This document shows, piece after piece, positions 17,899 through 25,355 of a stretch of DNA of 64,000 nt (position 1 is the first letter of the stretch; each line of letters begins with the position of its first letter). Source of the DNA: Rhodothermales bacterium (GTDB lineage: Bacteria > Bacteroidota > Rhodothermia > Rhodothermales > Bin80); NCBI GenBank assembly GCA_022822185.1, contig JAJECE010000048.1:7809-71808 (forward strand), in the 5' to 3' direction. Position numbers and translations under genes: made by a program. The notes under the pieces are model-generated. The model ran no database searches. It saw only the letters and a program-made list of their open reading frames with translations, and was not told the DNA's origin.

Positions 17899-19461
17899 TC
17901 ATCGTTCACAGGCGATCCCGTCTTGGTCACCGTCAAGTTTCATTGCGTCATCTGAAGTGGCATTGAATCTTCGATAGGGGAGTTTTTTGCAGCCGCCCCA
18001 GAAATTTTCAGGGATACACACGAACCAGTCCGGGTAACTGGAATGACATGTTATGGGTTGCATCAGGGGGTAAATTTTCTTCAGATTCTCATATTTGTGC
18101 GCGGCAATGATTCGATGGGGCGGCAGCTTGGGGAGGGGAGGGCGCCCCGTCTGGCATCCAGGGTCCCGGATATCTGCCAAGTCATCAAAATCATTGTCAA
18201 CTCCATCGGTGCATGCGGATCCAGATTCGTAGGATTCGGGGTCCGGATGTGCTCCTTTCTGCATCCACTTTTCGGGGATGCTTTGCCAGATGTCTTCGTA
18301 GTATGTATCAAACTGCCGTGTCAATTCGGGTGAGTTGATCAGGAGGGTATTCTCGTCGTTGGCCCATTCTCCGGCAGATGTCCAATTCATAGAACCCAGG
18401 ACCAGATATTGATCATCAATAGAGGCCGCCTTCATGTGCATCTTGCTGCCCCAGTTCTCAATCTTGACCGGGATTCCAGCTTCCCGCAGTATTTCGTGTT
18501 TGGAATACTCATTTTTGGCGGAGGTTGCATCAATAATGACCCGAACGTCTACGCCGCGCTGGTGTGCGGCAATCAGATCCGCCGTGAGATACTTTGCGGT
18601 AAGGAAGAAGACGGCGACATGGATGCGCGTTTCGGCTTTTGCAAGCAGTCCGCGTACACCGTAGCGGAGTGAATGATCCTGTGGAGAGAACCATGTTGTC
18701 ACCTTTCCAGATCCGAGTTGGAACTCTTCAATCCCATTCGCGGATTTTGAACAATTCCCGTCTCTTCCCCAGAGTTGTTCAAATTCCTGTGTATAGACGG
18801 ATGCAACCCGTTTGGAGTGAAGGATTACGACTGCATTGGCATTGTAGCCACCCGTACCGGAATTAGACAGGTTGGCCGAACCGGTCCAGATGTGTTCGTT
18901 ATCAATCACAAAGAACTTGTTGTGCATGATACTTGCAGCGGCAAATTCCTTTTTTGCGGCGTGACCGGTGACGAGGATGCGTTCCTGTCCCAGATTATAG
19001 GCCAGACACTGGAGTGGGCCACTGAATCCGGAGGGTCTTTGCCGCTCACAGGGAGACACTTGCGTAAACTCATCCCGGCATTTTTTCTCCCGCACAAAAT
19101 CATCCCGAATATTCCCGATCTCCCGTTCCCATACATGGGTGGAACTGTAATAGTTTTTGTTCTGGGCATCCTTGTCTACATACCCTCGCAGGGTGACTCC
19201 CCGTTCCTGTGCCCGGAGGACTGCCTGCAGGAGTCCAGATTGCATGCGTGTGCCATAGACGGCAAAGTCAATCGTCTCCTCCGCCTGATCAATCAGTTTT
19301 ACCAGAGATGTACAGAGTTTACTGTCACACTGATCAAGGGGTTGATCAAATTCTCGTGGGTCCTGCAGGACGAGTTCAAGATCAGGTCCGGTAATGCATC
19401 CGAGCAGGATGAAACCGGCAAGGGCGGCCCACTTTAGAAGAGCATTGCCGAACAGGTTCAT
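17899..19461 (-). CDS. Phospholipase D / Nuc-like nuclease family lipoprotein with C-terminal Cys-rich and Excalibur-like Ca-binding motifs
   Basis: Two HKD motifs (MHNKFFVIDNEHIWTGSANLSNSG and MHMKAASIDDQYLVLGSMNWTSAG). Lipoprotein signal MNLFGNALLKWAALAGFILLGC starts at the ATG at 19461. C-terminus has CTDGVDNDFDDLADIRDPGC and DGDQDGIACE. Confidence 0.85.
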   Translation of the reverse strand: MNLFGNALLKWAALAGFILLGCITGPDLELVLQDPREFDQPLDQCDSKLCTSLVKLIDQAEETIDFAVYGTRMQSGLLQAVLRAQERGVTLRGYVDKDAQNKNYYSSTHVWEREIGNIRDDFVREKKCRDEFTQVSPCERQRPSGFSGPLQCLAYNLGQERILVTGHAAKKEFAAASIMHNKFFVIDNEHIWTGSANLSNSGTGGYNANAVVILHSKRVASVYTQEFEQLWGRDGNCSKSANGIEEFQLGSGKVTTWFSPQDHSLRYGVRGLLAKAETRIHVAVFFLTAKYLTADLIAAHQRGVDVRVIIDATSAKNEYSKHEILREAGIPVKIENWGSKMHMKAASIDDQYLVLGSMNWTSAGEWANDENTLLINSPELTRQFDTYYEDIWQSIPEKWMQKGAHPDPESYESGSACTDGVDNDFDDLADIRDPGCQTGRPPLPKLPPHRIIAAHKYENLKKIYPLMQPITCHSSYPDWFVCIPENFWGGCKKLPYRRFNATSDDAMKLDGDQDGIACER

Positions 19462-19591
19462 AGGTTTGGAAGGCGGTCTGCACTCCAAAGATAAGTACTT
19501 TGGGGATTATCACGGATGAATCGGGGGTCCCGTCACAAATGAAAATCCGGGCATTCACCGCGGTCCATTCCATTCCATTGAATCGTATTCC

Positions 19592-20386
19592 CTAATTACC
19601 GGAAGCTTTGGCCTCGAGTTCTTCCAGGGTGATCAGCAGTTCCTCGGCCACCCAGCCATATTGCGGGTTAATTTCCAGTGCCTGTTCAAATGCATCCCGT
19701 GCCTCTTGCAGGTCTCCCCGATCCATGTATACCACTCCGAGTCGTGCATGAACTTCATCGTGTCCCCACGAGGGCTGGAATGGATGGATGATATTTTCTT
19801 CTTCAAAAATTTTCAGCGCCTCGTCAAATTCTGCCTCTGCGATTGCCTTGTCTCCACCTACAAAGCCGGGAAGGTTATAGTTGATGATCCCCTTCATCAA
19901 TTTGACGCGTGGATTATTGGGTTCCAGTTCAAATGCGAGGTCTCTAGCCCGGCGATATTTGCGGCTCAGGCCGACGGCCCGAAGTGGTCTCACAGAAATT
20001 TTGTGAACATATGAACTTGAGAGCAGCATCCATGCGTCTGCAAATGTCGGATCAATCGCTACTGCCGCCTCCAGATGTTCAATGGAGTTATTGATATGGT
20101 CTAAGCGGATACGATTGCCGGCATCCTTAACTCCTTCCCGGATCATATTGGCCATTGCACTTGAGGCGGCGGCAGCATAGTAGTGGGCCCAGATGGCAAG
20201 GCTGTCATCATCGGTTAAAGGTTCGAGCAGTGCCCTAGCTTTTAGAATCTGATCATAGTCCCGTTTGTCTGATCCGTCATCTAAAACATCCATTCCCTCC
20301 CGAAGGAGATCCCGATTTGATTGTGCCTGGGATGTTGTAATGCAGAGAAAAAAGCACGCCAGCGTAATTATGCCTAAGTAGTTCAT
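19592..20386 (-). CDS. Secreted TPR-repeat protein
   Basis: Signal peptide MNYLGIITLACFFLCITTSQAQS starts at the ATG at 20386. TPR-like helical repeats (ARLGVVYMDRGDLQEARDAFEQALEINPQYGW). Confidence 0.65.
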   Translation of the reverse strand: MNYLGIITLACFFLCITTSQAQSNRDLLREGMDVLDDGSDKRDYDQILKARALLEPLTDDDSLAIWAHYYAAAASSAMANMIREGVKDAGNRIRLDHINNSIEHLEAAVAIDPTFADAWMLLSSSYVHKISVRPLRAVGLSRKYRRARDLAFELEPNNPRVKLMKGIINYNLPGFVGGDKAIAEAEFDEALKIFEEENIIHPFQPSWGHDEVHARLGVVYMDRGDLQEARDAFEQALEINPQYGWVAEELLITLEELEAKASGN

Positions 20387-20486
20387 CGGATTCAGGTGGA
20401 TACAGTGAGGTTCTTGCTTAATCAACTCAAACCACATTCTACTCATTACTGGTTCAAAGGTTAATCAAGGTGGGGATGCACCATGA

Positions 20487-21447
20487 TTAGTGGAATTTTC
20501 TAAAGCTTTTTAGGGATGCAGGATAGTGTTTTTTGATTTGACCATGTCGTTTTAGTGCTCGGAGCAGTCCCTCCCACTGCCAGTCCTGTGGAATGGAGTT
20601 GAGCGAATGCTCTTCAATCTTCAGGCACGCCGCGGCAATCCATCGCTGGCGCTGATTTGAATTACACCATCGGGTCACTTTGCGGGTCGTGTGTGCAAGT
20701 GCGCCGTTGATGCTCACAATCATGTTCGTGGTTCGGAGCCGATCCCGCAGTAATTTGGGCACGCCCGGTTTATGGAGCGTCAGCGTTTCTTCCAATCCTT
20801 CTCGTAAACTGGCCGCCGCCTTGGGACATCGGTCGTCCAGTGTTTCCATCAGGGGCAGCAATTGTCCTTTTGCCTGGTCATAGGTATCGGCGGCAAATTC
20901 GGGATCCTGGATCTTGGAGGTCACATTTTCCCGCTTGTGCCACTGACAGCACTGAATCAGTGCCTGCTCTCCAATGACCTCAAGAACGCCTTTTGCGCAA
21001 TCCCTTCCCGCCATCAAGTAACACCAGCAATGTCATCGCCGTCTGGAAGCCGCGTTCCTGTAAATCCTGCAGCAGCGCAACGACACAGGAATGGGACTCG
21101 GTTTTGGCCTCTACGAACCCCAGGATGATCTTTTCTCCCTTGGTAGTCAATCCCGCCGCTAACAGAATCTGCTCTTCCCGGAGTGTCTTCCCGTTAATCA
21201 GGAACGCAACAAACTCCAGATCATCAAATCGCCGCGTCATGAAGTGCTTCAGGGCTTTCTCGGTCTCCTCTTTGAACACGCGTCCAGTGGTGGAGCCGCT
21301 GCGCCCAAAACTCTCGGCCACATGCTCTGCCGTTTGGCCAAATTTGCGCTGGGAGATTCCATACAGCACACTCCGCATGAGGTTCTTCGCATGAAAACTC
21401 TTATAGGCCCCCGGCGGACAGGAGAATAATCCATGCCCGTAGCGCAA
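20487..21447 (-). pseudogene. IS256-family (mutator-type) transposase, frameshifted and N-terminally truncated
   Basis: Two overlapping ORFs in different frames (20980-21447 and 20487-21017). The first ends ...LLVLLDGGKGLRK. The second continues with GVLEVIGEQALIQCCQWHKRENV, the IS256 D..G/CxxH..RN region. About 100 N-terminal residues have no counterpart upstream. Confidence 0.8.
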
Positions 21448-21572
21448 GTGACTGTGAAGTCTTGATCCAACCCCGAGACACGAAAATTATTTCACTGATC
21501 AACTATTTTTTATGCAGCACACTGGTGATCTTAAAGTTCAGGAACTATCGTACGGTTTTAGTGCAGTAAAAA

Positions 21573-22718
21573 TCATGAATCATGTAACAGTTCAACTGAC
21601 AATACACGTACAAGAGGTACTCCATTACGGTAATCTGTGATAAATAGTCTATTACCCAAACCAGGATATATCAATACTGGAACGAAAGGGTCTTCGTTTA
21701 CGGGATCGGCTAACCAGTCAATGCTGTGCCCTCCGACAAGATTTCGGTTCTTGTCAAACATTTCAACAAAAATGATTTTACCACCACCCTTCTGGCGTAC
21801 AGAGAAATGAGCAAGTATATCATCATGTGTTACACTGAGACCGACAGACCAACAATTTACCAAAGCTGCATCCCTTTCATTAGAATAGTTCAACACAAAA
21901 GCAGCGGGATTGCGATCAATTTCTGATTCGCTAAGGCTAACGATGGGTGGTTTATTTGGGGGCGTTCCCTTCATCCGATAGCTGGGTTCAGGAGCCGCTA
22001 AATCAAGGTCATATGCCAATAGATCCCCGTTGCATACGGGCGGAGCCATGATTAGGTGTTTACGCCATATTATGATTCGGCCAAGGTTAAAATAAGTTAG
22101 TGTATTCATAAAAGACATACTTGAGAGCGGCCAATCTTCGAAATCTACAAATCGGTCTCGGAGGGTAGAAAAAGTGGAATCCCAACGATGAACGAGTCTG
22201 CTACTTGAAGAGATACGGTACAGGCCAAGGTAATCGCCATTATATGAGACAAGGTCACGCAACCATAGAATAGAATTCGGCAAGGTACGAATAGTTTTAA
22301 TTTCTCCCGTTGGAAAGATTGTCGTAATCCTGGTATTGAATTGATCATATACGAGAATTTTTCCCTGTGGTGTAACCCAACCTGCAGAGATACTGTGGAA
22401 TTCTCCGGGCCCACTCCCCCTTTCACCTAGCGCTCCTAATGCGTGGCCATTAGAATCAAATACTTTGATCCGCATTGACAGTTGATCAAACACGTATATA
22501 CTGCCAGAATTGTCAGATCGCACTACAACAGGATCACCAAACATATTAATGGGATCTTCTTCAGATGTACCCAGCACGAAATGTTCTTTCAATTCCATGC
22601 GAATTTCTTGCGCACCAGCAAGTGGTGTACCGCCCTTCAATGCAACCAGCAATACAGCAGTCAACAGCAACCAATGCTGCAAACATGATTTATAGTTGTT
22701 TATCCCATAAAAAAACAT
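21573..22718 (-). CDS. Secreted 6-bladed beta-propeller protein (Bacteroidota BF3164/DUF5128-like)
   Basis: 381 aa. Signal peptide (WLLLTAVLLVALKGGTPLAGAQE). Hallmark GERGSGPGEF motif and repeated beta-strand blades (IYVFDQLSMRIKVFDSNG, ILVYDQFNTRI, LFITDYRNG). Confidence 0.6.
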   Translation of the reverse strand: MFFYGINNYKSCLQHWLLLTAVLLVALKGGTPLAGAQEIRMELKEHFVLGTSEEDPINMFGDPVVVRSDNSGSIYVFDQLSMRIKVFDSNGHALGALGERGSGPGEFHSISAGWVTPQGKILVYDQFNTRITTIFPTGEIKTIRTLPNSILWLRDLVSYNGDYLGLYRISSSSRLVHRWDSTFSTLRDRFVDFEDWPLSSMSFMNTLTYFNLGRIIIWRKHLIMAPPVCNGDLLAYDLDLAAPEPSYRMKGTPPNKPPIVSLSESEIDRNPAAFVLNYSNERDAALVNCWSVGLSVTHDDILAHFSVRQKGGGKIIFVEMFDKNRNLVGGHSIDWLADPVNEDPFVPVLIYPGLGNRLFITDYRNGVPLVRVLSVELLHDS

Positions 22719-22862
22719 TTTAATATATAATTAAATAGTCGGGTAACCCTTCACTCCCCCACGCCCAATTCATATGAGGGTACAAGCGGAGGCGTGAAAG
22801 TGGGTTCGGATGTCTGGAAAGAACGAACTAATTGAACAAGCAACAACCCAAGAATATTTCGT

Positions 22863-23144
22863 TCAACGGACTTTTTTACGACCTGATGCGGTACAACTGC
22901 CGCCCCCAAAGCCGCAGTGTTTATATCCTCTAGCACAGCCGCTCCAACCTGAACCTGAGGACGGAGCACATCTGTTATCGGGTGTACCATCATTCATACA
23001 GAAATAGCAACCGCTCAATGCCGGCTGAGTAAGTTGCTCAACCGGTACTATCGTTGCAGCAACAAGCACCAATATGGCAATGACCCACAGCCAAATCATT
23101 AGACGACTTTTCGGTTTTATATACATATGATAGAGAGATTTCAT
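22863..23144 (-). CDS. Small signal-anchored cysteine-rich protein (93 aa, 6 Cys)
   Basis: N-terminal TM/signal anchor LMIWLWVIAILVLVAATIV. C-terminal Gly/Ser/Cys-rich region GCYFCMNDGTPDNRCAPSSGSGWSGCARGYKHCGFGGGSC. Lies between, and on the same strand as, the CxxC protein and the propeller. Confidence 0.45.
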   Translation of the reverse strand: MKSLYHMYIKPKSRLMIWLWVIAILVLVAATIVPVEQLTQPALSGCYFCMNDGTPDNRCAPSSGSGWSGCARGYKHCGFGGGSCTASGRKKVR

Positions 23145-23170
23145 GGTGTTATAAGTTTGGTGATCTTTTA

Positions 23171-23770
23171 CTACCGATTTAAACGCAGGAAGGCAAGTTT
23201 GTTATCAATTGAGGTCGGGGTCGAAGATACGAATGCATGTCTCGTCACGCGACCATTCCTCGAATCTACAAGTGCAGCAATTTGTCTACTGGCTTGATCT
23301 TCCCGAAATCCAAAGGCTTTCATTAGGTCAGGATCAGAAGTTGGTATGGTTATAGCCGATAGTTCGGCCACTTTAGCGAATCTTTTTGCATCTGAGAGGG
23401 ATTCGGACAGACAAAGAACCAAAGGAGTAATGTTATTGTCATTAATTGCACCAGTAAAATTTGTACGGACTACATCTGTGAATCCGTCAATTTCACCGAG
23501 GCATCCATAGCAGACTTTAATTCCTATTGCAAACACCAAGAGTGTACTACTCTCATAGCTCCATTCGTAGCCAGTTTGCTCAACAGCAGAACGAAGTGCT
23601 GTCATCGGAACTTTATCAGTGATATCCTCTGCTTCAATCCATTCCTTTTGCTGTGGCGGTTTAGACCAAATCCCCGCCCTAAACTGTAGGATAACCAAAG
23701 CAAGGCCAATCAATAGAAGTGGTCCGGCGCGGCTTAGCAAGTTCATAATTCCAGTCTTTCCCATTCTCAT
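23171..23770 (-). CDS. Membrane-anchored thioredoxin-fold-like protein with CxxC motif
   Basis: 199 aa. TM helix AGPLLLIGLALVILQF. LLVFAIGIKVCYGCLGEIDGF resembles the beta1-CxxC-alpha1 element of TlpA/redoxin-type proteins. The family assignment is tentative. Confidence 0.4.
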   Translation of the reverse strand: MRMGKTGIMNLLSRAGPLLLIGLALVILQFRAGIWSKPPQQKEWIEAEDITDKVPMTALRSAVEQTGYEWSYESSTLLVFAIGIKVCYGCLGEIDGFTDVVRTNFTGAINDNNITPLVLCLSESLSDAKRFAKVAELSAITIPTSDPDLMKAFGFREDQASRQIAALVDSRNGRVTRHAFVSSTPTSIDNKLAFLRLNR

Positions 23771-23905
23771 CTAAGGGTACATCCGCTCTGGCCACCGATA
23801 AGTTAATCACTGTAGGAGTAAAAAACAAACGAGACGGCCCATCTTCGTCAATTGAGATGTTATTGCAAAACTAATAATCCAGCTAAAAACGCTCCCGGAT
23901 GCACT

Positions 23906-25355
23906 CATGTGAACAAAAATCTTCAAGACTGGGAATTTTGCAAGAACCTCCATTTCCAAAGAAGACTGGGAAAAACTCACTCAATGCGCCGTTTCCCGGC
24001 TTAAAGGGCAAGATGTCCTCTCCCACAAAGAGGACGATGAAGATTTCCAGAAGGCCCTGGATCTCATCGTGAAACGAATCTAGGAAAAAGGCTACGATGT
24101 CTATGCGATGCCGCCGGATTCCCGGGACAAGATCCTCCCCAATGAGATCCGCCATACACAGTCTCGCACGGTTGCCGGGGAGCGGATGGCACTGGAAGCG
24201 ATCAAGCAAGTCAAGTTCCTGCAGATTCTTCGGGATCTGAATCCCTCGGAAAATCACATCAAACAGGTCTGTGCACTCATTGTCGGGCGATTACTTTATC
24301 TTGGAAGTGACCGGGCCACGCACCGCTGGATGACGGAAAGTTCCAGTATTCTGGACTTGCTTGGAATTGATGTTAGACAGCTGCGAGGATTGCCACTGAG
24401 GAGAATCTGGCCGGTCTGCGGGAGCAGGGATTAGATTATGTCTGTGTAGAGCGGGCAAAAACTCCACCGGTTCCCACCGGGGACCCCGCTCACATGTTTA
24501 CCACGGCCGGGAAGAAGATCAAGGCCTAGCGGCTTCCAGATCCGAAAAAGGTGCAGGAAGGGGAAGATGAACCGAAACCGCAGCAGGAAGCCTCGAAGCA
24601 ACAGCGGGTCTATATCCATAGTGAAGCGAAGAAGTACACCGAGGAGCAGATTCGGGACACGAAATGCAGCAAGTATGAAGCCGAACTGACGGGGTTGAAT
24701 AACGGCTTCTCCAAGTCTGGATATCTTAAGGATCTGGGGAAAGTACACATCAAATTCGGGCGCTTGAAGCAAAAGCATAAAGATGTATCTCACTTGTATG
24801 AGGTGGTCATCACGGACAAATCGGGCCCTCGAAAAGGGCAGCGGTATGTCACAAGTCTGACCTTTACCCGGAAAGTGACACATGAACAAAAATGTCGGGC
24901 TTCCGGTGCATATGTGATCCGTACCACGCATCTCGACTGGAGCGTCGAACAGGTAGCACGAATGTACTGGCGACTCACGGAGATTGAGAGTGCCTTCCAT
25001 GCCATGAAATCGGACCTCGGACTCCATCCTCTGTATCACCGCAAAAAAGACCGGATTGAGTCGCACATGTTCCTCACCATTCTAGCGTATCCTGTCTCCC
25101 ATTTGATCCGTTTCCAACTCAAACAGGCGGGACATCATCACAGTTGGGATACAATCCCGAACGGAACTCAACCAGATGCGGCGGGTCACCACAAGCCTGC
25201 CCAAAAGTAAACACTGCTACATGATCACCGAAATTGATCAGGATTTATCGCCGTTACTGGCGGAGCTCTTTCACATTCCCGGATTCCGGTACGATCCTGA
25301 TGAAACCCGAACCCGAACCGAAACCGAATACATCAAAGAACCCGCATGGATATGA
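23906..25355 (+). pseudogene. IS1634/IS4-family DDE transposase, multiply disrupted
   Basis: The reading frame is broken into at least 4 pieces on the + strand. Pieces include ...ISKEDWEKLTQCAVSRLKGQDV...; AGERMALEAIKQVKFLQILRDLNP...LGSDRATHRWM; and the C-terminal DDE region with the Y-x2-R-x3-E-x6-K signature (VARMYWRLTEIESAFHAMKSDLGLHPLYH). The tail LFHIPGFRYDP is in another frame. Confidence 0.7.

What the first reader, a model, noticed from the sequence alone, without database searches (positions are those of the whole stretch)
21573..23770. Three-gene module: membrane-anchored CxxC protein, six-cysteine signal-anchored peptide, 6-bladed beta-propeller
Seen. Three co-directional minus-strand genes are separated by 26 and 144 nt. 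The first is a 199-aa protein with one TM helix and a VCYGC motif in a thioredoxin-like beta-alpha context. The second is a 93-aa protein with a signal anchor, then VEQLTQPALSG, then a Gly/Ser-rich tail with Cys at positions 46, 49, 59, 70, 77 and 84. The third is a secreted propeller with the GSGPGEF motif. Established. In Bacteroidota, BF3164/DUF5128-type propellers commonly neighbour small signal-anchored NVEALA-family proteins of unknown function. Inference. The peptide here may be a divergent member, with VEQLTQ in place of NVEALA, whose cysteines are oxidised by the co-encoded CxxC protein. That would make a secreted disulfide-knotted peptide with a dedicated oxidoreductase and a binding or processing propeller. 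This function has not been described, and the reading is speculative.
Basis: partly seen in the sequence, partly recalled or inferred. Interest (0 to 1): 0.6.

Follow-up and report, generated by a model that had tools for sequence, protein, structure and literature searches.

The report
Cys-rich peptide, thioredoxin-like protein, propeller cassette
A sponge-associated Rhodothermales bacterium carries a small, mobile three-gene set, which recurs in distant bacteria but is described in no paper I could find: a tiny exported six-cysteine protein, a membrane-anchored thioredoxin-like enzyme and a propeller-shaped exported protein, which most likely fold or handle the peptide's disulfide bonds outside the cytoplasm.

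Summary
Three co-directional minus-strand genes, 26 and 144 nt apart, encode three proteins. The first is a 199-aa TM-anchored protein whose model is a ResA/TlpA-like thioredoxin fold with VCYGC at the N-cap of helix 1. The second is a 93-aa exported peptide with six invariant Cys. The third is a 381-aa NHL/DUF5128 propeller.

All three evolve under purifying selection (dN/dS 0.2-0.4). Sponge metatranscriptome contigs cover all three. The same trio was found in every related locus with enough flanking DNA, down to 15-25% identity, and once together with MauE-like genes. Gene callers missed the peptide gene in at least four of these loci.

The peptide is not an NVEALA (PF14055) member. In the thioredoxin-like family only the first Cys is invariant (CxxC, CxxS or CxxT). 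This argues against a DsbA-type oxidase and for thiol-disulfide exchange or isomerisation.

The best reading is a split counterpart of the fused Trx-NHL proteins NHLRC2/SOQ1, acting on a private Cys-rich client. The function is inferred, not shown.

The cassette is AT-richer than its flanks and bracketed by IS remnants. It is partly deleted in sister strains.

The parts
23171..23770 (-). 199-aa membrane-anchored (N-in, TM 7-34) periplasmic thioredoxin-fold protein of the ResA/TlpA type. Active site VC87YGC90LGE93.
   Evidence: ORF. AF2 model with pLDDT 87 and pTM 0.77. Foldseek matches to ResA, DsbE, Bcp and DipZ at E 2e-5 to 5e-4. In a 22-sequence family alignment C87 is the only invariant residue and E93 is nearly invariant. 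The HMM alignment to StoA puts C87/C90/E93 on WCPPCKKE. dN/dS is 0.22-0.26. An RNA contig covers 23096-23771.
22863..23144 (-). 93-aa exported mini-protein. It has a basic N-terminus, a hydrophobic helix (13-32), a linker, then a ~48-aa core C46-x2-C-x9-C-x10-C-x6-C-x6-C84 with an invariant SSGSGW and G(F/Y)GGG.
   Evidence: ORF. Orthologue alignments. dN/dS and the frame test. Relatives in metagenomes found through the motif patterns. An RNA contig covers 22802-23109. The AF2 model is weak: pLDDT 64.5, with a helix at 13-32 and a hairpin at 46-50/58-62.
21573..22718 (-). 381-aa exported six-bladed NHL/DUF5128-type beta-propeller. It has a signal peptide and the GSGPGEF motif in an NHL blade.
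   Evidence: PF17170 at E 4e-8, above the cut-off. PDB sequence matches to NHL domains: Thin at E 5.5e-25 in 4 stretches, plus TRIM71. Orthologues at 93, 69 and 51% identity. dN/dS is 0.29-0.33. RNA contigs cover 21720-22481.
20487..21447 (-). Two overlapping fragments of a Mutator-family transposase gene: a decayed IS that forms one border of the AT-richer islet.
   Evidence: PF00872 at E 2e-10 and 7e-5 on two ORFs. GC drops from about 0.51 to 0.43 across the module. The sister genome L004 has no such element at this side.
24551..25210 (+). Fragment of a DDE_Tnp_1 (IS4-like) transposase gene, forming the other border of the islet.
   Evidence: PF01609 at E 7e-7. The same remnant lies beside the module in L004, L005 and L006.

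Best explanation
This is a conserved, horizontally mobile envelope cassette. It makes and handles a small disulfide-rich exported protein.

The 93-aa precursor is exported by Sec. Its N-terminal helix is a signal peptide or anchor, and small residues follow the helix in all family members.

In the periplasm its six cysteines are brought into three defined disulfides with the help of the two co-encoded proteins, which work as a pair. The NHL/DUF5128 propeller binds the peptide. The membrane-anchored ResA/TlpA-like thioredoxin-fold protein uses its invariant N-terminal active-site Cys (C87, tuned by E93) for thiol-disulfide exchange. That means proof-reading or isomerisation, or holding the peptide through a mixed disulfide, rather than de novo oxidation.

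Functionally this is a split version of the fused Trx-like + NHL proteins NHLRC2/SOQ1. It also parallels MauD/MauE with the cysteine-rich MauA subunit.

Shown: the genes, the folds, conservation, linkage and transcription. Inferred: export, the disulfides, who acts on whom, and what the mature peptide is for.
For: (1) Linkage. The TM-anchored Trx-like gene lies next to a small Cys-rich exported-peptide gene in every locus examined, and next to a DUF5128/NHL propeller wherever the contig is long enough. The loci are the window, L001, L002 and L003, L015 and L016, L007, L008/L009 with three tandem units, L011, and L017/L018 and L019. Gene order differs between loci and Trx-like identity falls to 12-25%.

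(2) Thioredoxin fold of the ResA/TlpA type. C87 sits at the N-cap of helix 1 and the Glu lies at C+6. C87 is the only invariant residue among 22 sequences.

(3) The six Cys of the peptide are invariant in its orthologues, and the gene is under purifying selection.

(4) L008/L009 add MauE-like genes (PF07291, E 7e-15, CGC motif) to the same kit. MauE was shown to replace DsbB, and MauD/MauE mature the six-disulfide MADH small subunit (bioRxiv 10.64898/2026.03.05.709764).

(5) A TlpA-like Trx domain and an NHL propeller are fused in NHLRC2 and SOQ1, with the redox motif in the cleft between them (PMC6107167; 10.1101/2021.03.16.435614).

(6) Metatranscriptome contigs cover all three genes but not the immediate flanks.

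(7) In L017/L018 a MacB-type permease follows the trio. This is compatible with export of a periplasmically matured peptide.
Against: No experiment or structure shows contact between the three proteins.

The second active-site Cys is variable, and the usual cis-Pro is a Gln in this protein. Some members may therefore not be redox-active at all. By comparison, the NHLRC2 Trx domain lacks insulin-reductase activity (PMC6107167).

No MauE, DsbB or CcdA-like partner lies in the 64-kb window, and the rest of the genome could not be searched.

The peptide model is too weak to give a disulfide map.

Sister strains L004, L005 and L006 have lost the 3' half of the Trx gene and the peptide's signal but keep an intact propeller. 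The trio is therefore dispensable, and the propeller may have a role of its own.

The Logan RNA contigs carry no strand information and may contain some DNA.
Confidence: 0.45

Rival explanations
1. The CxxC protein is a dedicated DsbA-like oxidase that introduces the three disulfides de novo. The propeller binds or processes the product.
For: The window protein has a full CxxC, as do 12 of 22 family members. The L008/L009 units carry MauE-like genes, which could re-oxidise a CxxC partner.
Against: CxxS, CxxT and CxxQ variants occur in loci that keep six-Cys peptides: L001, L017 and L007. The fold class is ResA/TlpA/Prx-like, not DsbA-like: the model shows no inserted helical domain. No re-oxidising membrane partner lies in the window.
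Confidence: 0.15
2. The peptide and the propeller are the functional pair. They could be a small subunit and a large subunit, as in methylamine dehydrogenase, or a ligand with its receptor, carrier or immunity protein. The Trx-like protein would be only an accessory maturation factor. The end function could be antagonism (a bacteriocin-like peptide) or host/symbiont signalling in the sponge.
For: The layout matches mauB (propeller), mauE, mauD and mauA (a Cys-rich small subunit) (the gene layout is from general knowledge). The propeller stays intact where the other two genes are deleted. The peptide cores are hypervariable between distant loci while the propellers co-vary with them in tandem units. 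A MacB-type exporter lies in L017/L018.
Against: There is no MauG-like or other cofactor-forming gene. Trp and Tyr are not conserved in the distant peptides. If the propeller needed the peptide, it should decay together with it in L004-L006. No toxin or immunity signature was found in Pfam or NCBIfam.
Confidence: 0.2
3. This is a RiPP-like pathway. The propeller would be an enzyme that chemically modifies or cleaves the Gly/Ser/Cys-rich core. Examples are a lyase, a cyclase or a leader protease, as some six-bladed propellers are. The Trx-like protein would keep the cysteines reduced for that chemistry.
For: TlpA/ResA-type proteins are typically reductants (general knowledge; fold). The core is rich in Gly, Ser and Cys. 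The weak NCBIfam similarity of the blades to ScyF, a biosynthetic NHL protein, is sub-threshold at 45 bits against a cut-off of 350.
Against: No recognised maturase (radical SAM, YcaO or LanM) and no C39 transporter lies in or beside any of the loci read. The best sequence matches of the propeller are binding-type NHL domains, not enzymes. Six invariant Cys in even number fit disulfides.
Confidence: 0.1
4. In this genome the cassette is a decaying hitch-hiker on IS-rich DNA with no present function.
For: The islet is AT-richer than its flanks and lies between two transposase remnants. Sister strains carry a deletion across the Trx and peptide genes. The propeller is split in L003. The CYFC-type peptide genes in L007 and L008/L009 are frameshifted.
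Against: All three ORFs are intact in the window and in a 97%-identical strain. dN/dS is well below 1 for all three. RNA contigs cover them.
Confidence: 0.1

Closest known systems
NHLRC2 (animals, some bacteria) and SOQ1 (plant thylakoid lumen): TlpA/DipZ-like Trx domain fused to a six-bladed NHL propeller
   Same: It combines a TlpA/DipZ-class thioredoxin-fold domain with an NHL propeller in an extracytoplasmic or lumenal setting. SOQ1 is also membrane-anchored N-terminal to the Trx domain. DipZ-C, the closest structural relative of the NHLRC2 Trx domain (PMC6107167), is among the fold hits of the window protein.
   Different: Here the two domains are separate genes. The active site is VCYGC/CxxS, not CC(I/V)NC. 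There is no C-terminal beta-stranded domain. A Cys-rich peptide gene is always attached, whereas no conserved neighbour was found for bacterial NHLRC2 homologues. The propeller is closer in sequence to TRIM-type NHL domains.
MauD/MauE with MauA and MauB of the methylamine dehydrogenase cluster
   Same: It contains a thioredoxin-like CxxC protein, a Cys-rich small exported protein and a propeller protein. In L008/L009 it also has a MauE-family membrane protein with a CGC motif.
   Different: There is no MauE in the window. There is no MauG or other TTQ genes. The propeller is a six-bladed NHL type, not the seven-bladed MauB. The peptide core is about 48 aa with 6 Cys, against about 130 aa with 12 Cys.
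ResA / StoA / CcmG / TlpA membrane-anchored periplasmic thiol-disulfide oxidoreductases
   Same: It has an N-terminal membrane anchor, the same fold, and CxxC at the helix-1 N-cap with a Glu at C+6.
   Different: It reaches no Pfam or NCBIfam redoxin model. The second Cys is variable. The cis-Pro is replaced by Gln. The genomic partners are a peptide and a propeller, not cytochrome c or copper-centre maturation genes.
Bacteroidales NVEALA (PF14055) small proteins beside DUF5128/BF3164-type propellers
   Same: The propeller passes PF17170.
   Different: The peptide does not match PF14055 and has no NVEALA motif. No paper on either family was found.
Dedicated Dsb pairs for single clients (DsbL/DsbI with arylsulfate sulfotransferase; BdbA/BdbB with sublancin)
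   Same: A private thiol-disulfide enzyme is encoded next to its presumed Cys-containing exported client (general knowledge). In L002 an arylsulfotransferase-family propeller with a T9SS tail lies directly upstream of the trio.
   Different: Those enzymes are DsbA/DsbB-type oxidases with a membrane re-oxidant. Here the enzyme is TlpA-like, is often monothiol, and always comes with an NHL propeller.

Membership tests
Pfam PF17170 DUF5128 (6-bladed beta-propeller) | HMM score above the gathering threshold | tested here: met
   The score is 33.2 bits against a cut-off of 22.9, at E 4e-8. Only profile positions 53-147 of 321 are matched. The partner propellers in L007, L009, L017 and L019 also pass.
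NHL-repeat six-bladed propeller | Repeated NHL blades recognisable by sequence | tested here: met
   phmmer against the PDB gives the Thin NHL region at E 5.5e-25 in 4 stretches, and TRIM71 at about 1e-16.
Pfam PF14055 NVEALA | HMM match and the NVEALA motif after the N-terminal helix | tested here: not met
   No PF14055 hit was found at E<=1 for the window peptide, or at E<=10 for any of 11 family peptides. The motif position holds PVEQLT only in the closest relatives.
Thioredoxin-fold, ResA/TlpA/CcmG class | A beta-alpha-beta-alpha-beta-alpha-beta-beta-alpha fold with the redox motif at the N-terminus of helix 1 | tested here: met
   In the AF2 model (pLDDT 87) the strand is at 76-82, C87 follows, and the helix is at 88-105. 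Foldseek top hits are ResA, DsbE, Bcp, DipZ and DsbF, with probability 1.00 and TM 0.5-0.6 on the target.
Thioredoxin-fold, ResA/TlpA/CcmG class | CxxC with both cysteines conserved, and the Glu three residues after the second Cys | tested here: inconclusive
   C87 is invariant and E93 is nearly invariant, aligned to WCPPCKKE of StoA. The second Cys is S, T or Q in 10 of 22 members.
Thioredoxin-fold, ResA/TlpA/CcmG class | cis-Pro loop before strand 4; match to the Redoxin, AhpC-TSA or Thioredoxin_8 HMMs | tested here: not met
   Gln163 stands at that place, and Pro appears only in a few distant members. The window protein has no Pfam or NCBIfam redoxin hit. Relatives in L009 give only sub-threshold hits at E 0.04-0.06.
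MauD/MauE disulfide pathway | A MauE-family membrane protein with a CxC motif encoded with the Trx-like protein | tested here: not met
   A six-frame HMM search of the window found no MauE-like ORF. The feature is met in L008/L009 (PF07291, E 7e-15 and 5e-13, with CGC).
NHLRC2 / SOQ1 | Trx-like and NHL domains in one polypeptide with a CC(I/V)NC motif | tested here: not met
   The two domains are separate genes and the motif is VCYGC. The resemblance is functional and architectural only.
Class II / double-glycine bacteriocins and RiPPs | A C39-peptidase ABC exporter or a recognised maturase in the cluster | tested here: not met
   No such Pfam family occurs in the module or its neighbours in the window, L001, L002, L004, L009, L011, L017 or L019.

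The most novel reading that the evidence does not exclude
The trio would be one branch of a widespread, unannotated class of envelope systems in FCB-group and other diderm bacteria. In this class a membrane-anchored TlpA-like protein and an NHL/DUF5128 propeller form a two-protein periplasmic 'foldase/handler'. This would be the free-standing ancestor or counterpart of NHLRC2/SOQ1. Its private clients would be hypervariable disulfide-rich mini-proteins that gene callers routinely miss. In a sponge symbiont, the product could be one of the disulfide-rich peptides attributed to sponges. Solving the bacterial system would then also give the first biochemical handle on what the Trx-NHL pair of the human disease gene NHLRC2 does.
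Probability: 0.3. Interest if true: 0.8.

Novelty: new variant of a known kind. Interest (0 to 1): 0.6.

Why it matters
Three points.

1. It defines two protein families that no Pfam or NCBIfam model reaches. One is a six-Cys exported peptide family that gene callers missed in at least four related loci. The other is a TM-anchored thioredoxin-like family with no family model.

2. The strict linkage of a TlpA-like protein with an NHL propeller and a Cys-rich client gives a testable bacterial model for the Trx-NHL pairing. The function of that pairing is still unknown in NHLRC2 (FINCA disease) and only partly understood in SOQ1.

3. The natural CxxC/CxxS variation beside unchanged six-Cys peptides bears on how disulfide-rich peptides are matured in bacteria that lack classical DsbA/DsbB. 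This sits alongside the newly reported MauE pathway.

If instead the cassette is only a dispensable mobile accessory, it remains a useful annotation fix.

Tried and rejected
- The word-based homologue search with the peptide found nothing, because the gene is mostly uncalled. Motif-pattern scanning of metagenome contigs did work.
- L010, hit by the CYFC pattern, is an unrelated protein whose Cys/Gly-rich C-terminal tail (…CYFCLGDGGPGGRCFACGGTG…) matched only the pattern. I discarded it.
- P0008, a 51%-identical propeller, is not on record for context.
- The sigma-70 promoter and terminator scan gave no more than shuffles. These consensus patterns probably do not suit this phylum.
- The AF2 model of the peptide was too weak (pLDDT 64.5) to derive a disulfide map or to justify a fold search.
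- dN/dS cannot separate the sense frame from the antisense frame that shares its wobble positions. The sense frame was chosen because of the start codon, the signal sequence, the invariant Cys and protein-level conservation in distant loci. The antisense ORF is not conserved in L015.
- Literature searches for NVEALA, DUF5128, BF3164 and PF17170 found nothing useful.
- A peroxiredoxin reading was rejected. Prx keep the C-terminal position of the motif (TxxC, general knowledge), whereas this family keeps the N-terminal Cys.
Paralogues and redox partners elsewhere in the genome could therefore not be sought.
Full report
**1. What is there**

The window holds three co-directional minus-strand ORFs exactly as described:
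- 23171-23770, 199 aa
- 22863-23144, 93 aa
- 21573-22718, 381 aa

The gaps between them are 26 and 144 nt.

The block has 0.43 G+C against about 0.51 in the flanks. It lies between a broken Mutator-family transposase gene (20487-21447) and a DDE_Tnp_1 fragment (24551-25210).

The lineage is an uncultured Rhodothermales bacterium (record title of L006). The stretch is found in sponge metagenomes.

**2. The three proteins**

*The propeller.* It passes Pfam PF17170 (DUF5128), although only over two blades. It matches NHL-repeat domains of solved structures: Thin at E 5.5e-25 in four stretches, plus TRIM71. It starts with an ordinary signal peptide, not a lipobox.

*The 199-aa protein.* It has no Pfam or NCBIfam family. 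A profile search of 1.8 billion representatives found only 17 relatives.

With a 22-sequence alignment, AlphaFold2 gave a confident model (pLDDT 87, pTM 0.77). The model has a TM helix at 7-34 and then a beta-alpha-beta-alpha-beta-alpha-beta-beta-alpha domain, with C87 immediately before helix 88-105.

Foldseek against the PDB returns ResA, DsbE, Bcp/peroxiredoxins, the DipZ C-terminal domain and DsbF, all at probability 1.00. The family profile aligns weakly (E 0.15) to StoA, with C87, C90 and E93 lying on WCPPCKKE.

So it is a membrane-anchored, outward-facing thioredoxin-fold protein of the ResA/TlpA class. It is divergent: Gln replaces the cis-Pro.

*The 93-aa protein.* It has a basic N-terminus, a hydrophobic helix and a linker. 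The roughly 48-residue core follows the pattern C-x2-C-x9-C-x10-C-x6-C-x6-C.

**3. Is the small ORF a gene?**

Yes, on four lines of evidence.
- It is present, mostly uncalled, between the other two genes in L001, L002 and L003. All six Cys, SSGSGW and G(F/Y)GGG are invariant there.
- dN/dS is 0.25-0.43 in five of six pairs. This matches the neighbours (0.22-0.33). The overlapping +1 frame, which a gene caller chose in L004, gives pN/pS of 1.4-1.8 in five of six pairs and 0.92 in the sixth.
- Pattern scanning of metagenome contigs, and context look-ups, found the same core at 33-58% identity in unrelated, differently composed genomes: L007, L008/L009, L015 and L017.
- Contigs of a sponge metatranscriptome cover 22802-23109, 23096-23771 and three pieces of the propeller gene. 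None lies on 21300-21675 or beyond 24026. Those contigs carry no strand information and may contain some DNA.

**4. Linkage**

I could read eleven contexts of the Trx-like family. Each one has a small signal-bearing Cys-rich ORF next to it. Each contig that is long enough also has a DUF5128/NHL propeller.

| Locus | Trx active site | Peptide | Propeller and extras |
|---|---|---|---|
| L001 | CYGS | 89 aa | 383 aa |
| L002 | CFGC | ~94 aa | 382 aa |
| L003 | CYGC | 95 aa | split in two |
| L015 | CAGC | 87 aa | present |
| L016 | CPPC | 73 aa, six Cys | contig ends |
| L017/L018 | CGAS | CYFC type | 389 aa, then MacB-type permease and a CarboxypepD_reg protein |
| L019 | CVPC | 92 aa, nine Cys | DUF5128 lipoprotein |
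| L011 | CPPC | divergent 167-aa secreted Cys/Gly/Ser-rich protein | 404 aa, overlapping the Trx gene |
| L007 | CPPQ | CYFC type | first in the order propeller-Trx-peptide |
| L009 | CPPC, CRKC, CDDC | one or more per unit | three tandem units, each with a MauE-like gene (PF07291) |

A distant DUF5128 propeller chosen without regard to the Trx family (L013) has none of these neighbours. The linkage therefore belongs to this sub-family and not to DUF5128 in general.

**5. What the variation says**

In the Trx-like family only the first Cys is invariant. The Glu at C+6 is nearly invariant. The second Cys is S, T or Q in 10 of 22 members. These include orthologues that still neighbour peptides with all six Cys (L001, L017).

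A DsbA-like oxidase needs both cysteines. A single N-terminal nucleophilic Cys is enough for disulfide shuffling or for a mixed-disulfide hold (general knowledge of PDI/Dsb CxxS variants).

This, together with the ResA/TlpA fold class, moves the reading away from 'dedicated oxidase' and towards 'dedicated exchange, isomerisation or handling'.

**6. Comparison with the known**

- *NHLRC2 and SOQ1.* Both fuse a TlpA/DipZ-like Trx domain to a six-bladed NHL propeller, with the redox motif in the inter-domain cleft. Their function is unknown or only partly known (PMC6107167; 10.1101/2021.03.16.435614). The cassette looks like the same pair as two genes, with a client attached.
- *The mau cluster.* It offers a second parallel: propeller subunit, MauE, thioredoxin-like MauD, and a Cys-rich small subunit. 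MauE has just been shown to substitute for DsbB (10.64898/2026.03.05.709764). MauE-like genes occur in the L008/L009 units but not in this window.
- *NVEALA.* Membership fails the HMM test for all 11 peptides. No paper on NVEALA or DUF5128 was found.

**7. Mobility and decay**

The module is AT-richer than its surroundings here and in L001. It lies beside IS elements in both, at different chromosomal places.

Sister genomes L004, L005 and L006 share the window's synteny (OsmC ... TPR, PLD). They carry a deletion running from the middle of the Trx gene to the first Cys of the peptide, while the propeller stays intact at 93% identity.

The intact form is present in several sponge samples, including a 97%-identical strain without frame-breaking changes.

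**8. Earlier notes of this scan**

After forming the above reading I looked at earlier AI notes. They describe the same kind of trio in Bacteroidota, Gemmatimonadota, Cloacimonadota and Saccharicenans, and also point to NHLRC2/SOQ1. They are unchecked leads and not independent evidence. They agree with the loci I read myself.

**9. Limits**

- Only single chains could be modelled.
- The peptide model is weak.
- Export, the disulfides and all interactions are inferred.

**Verdict**

This is a real, conserved cassette with no description in the literature or family databases I could search. Its chemistry is probably thiol-disulfide exchange on a private six-Cys client. Its biological purpose is unknown.

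Noticed in passing
L004 7136-7999; L005 6001-6864; L006 4160-4656: Sister Rhodothermales genomes carry a deletion. It removes the 3' half of the Trx-like gene and the signal-coding part of the peptide gene, and leaves the propeller intact (93% identity). In L004 and L005 the remnant 'IKVCYGCLGEIDGFTDVVRTN' is fused to antisense transposase sequence and was called as a 178-aa gene. In L004 the gene caller also called the wrong (+1) frame over the peptide core (89 aa).
   Followed up: partly
L008 4900-5123 = L009 4258-4481; L007 2044-2279: The CYFC-type peptide genes of two unrelated AT-rich metagenome lineages each need a frameshift to join the signal peptide to the core. In L008/L009 it falls exactly after CYFC and is identical in two samples. 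In L007 it falls inside the signal. I could not tell whether this is sequencing error, decay or programmed shifting.
   Followed up: no
L009 1-8833: Three tandem units each combine a MauE-like membrane protein (CGC motif), a Cys-rich peptide, a DUF5128/NHL propeller and a TM-anchored CxxC protein. The peptide cores are very different between units, which looks like a diversifying multi-cassette array.
   Followed up: partly
L002 278-2014: Directly upstream of the trio lies a 578-aa arylsulfotransferase-family (PF05935) propeller with a T9SS Por_Secre_tail. In E. coli this enzyme family has its own DsbL/DsbI pair. Here it may be chance adjacency.
   Followed up: no
L017 4033-6863; L018 3438-6268; L001 10373-10792: In L017/L018 a MacB-type double FtsX permease and a CarboxypepD_reg-domain protein follow the propeller. 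In L001 a CarboxypepD_reg protein also follows it. These may be optional export or outer-membrane parts of the system.
   Followed up: no
window 23771: The metatranscriptome contig covering the Trx-like gene ends about 13 nt upstream of its ATG and runs straight into Illumina adapter sequence. This could mark a transcript 5' end with a very short leader.
   Followed up: no
L011 319-822 (-): A 167-aa secreted protein with more than 20 Cys in a Gly/Ser/Thr-rich context is divergently transcribed from a CPPC-Trx/propeller pair in a high-GC organism. It is a much larger possible client of the same kit.
   Followed up: no
window 17899-19488 and 19592-20446: An exported PLD-type (two HKD) nuclease with an Excalibur-like tail, and a TPR protein, flank the islet. 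They are syntenic in L004 and L005 and are not part of the cassette.
   Followed up: no
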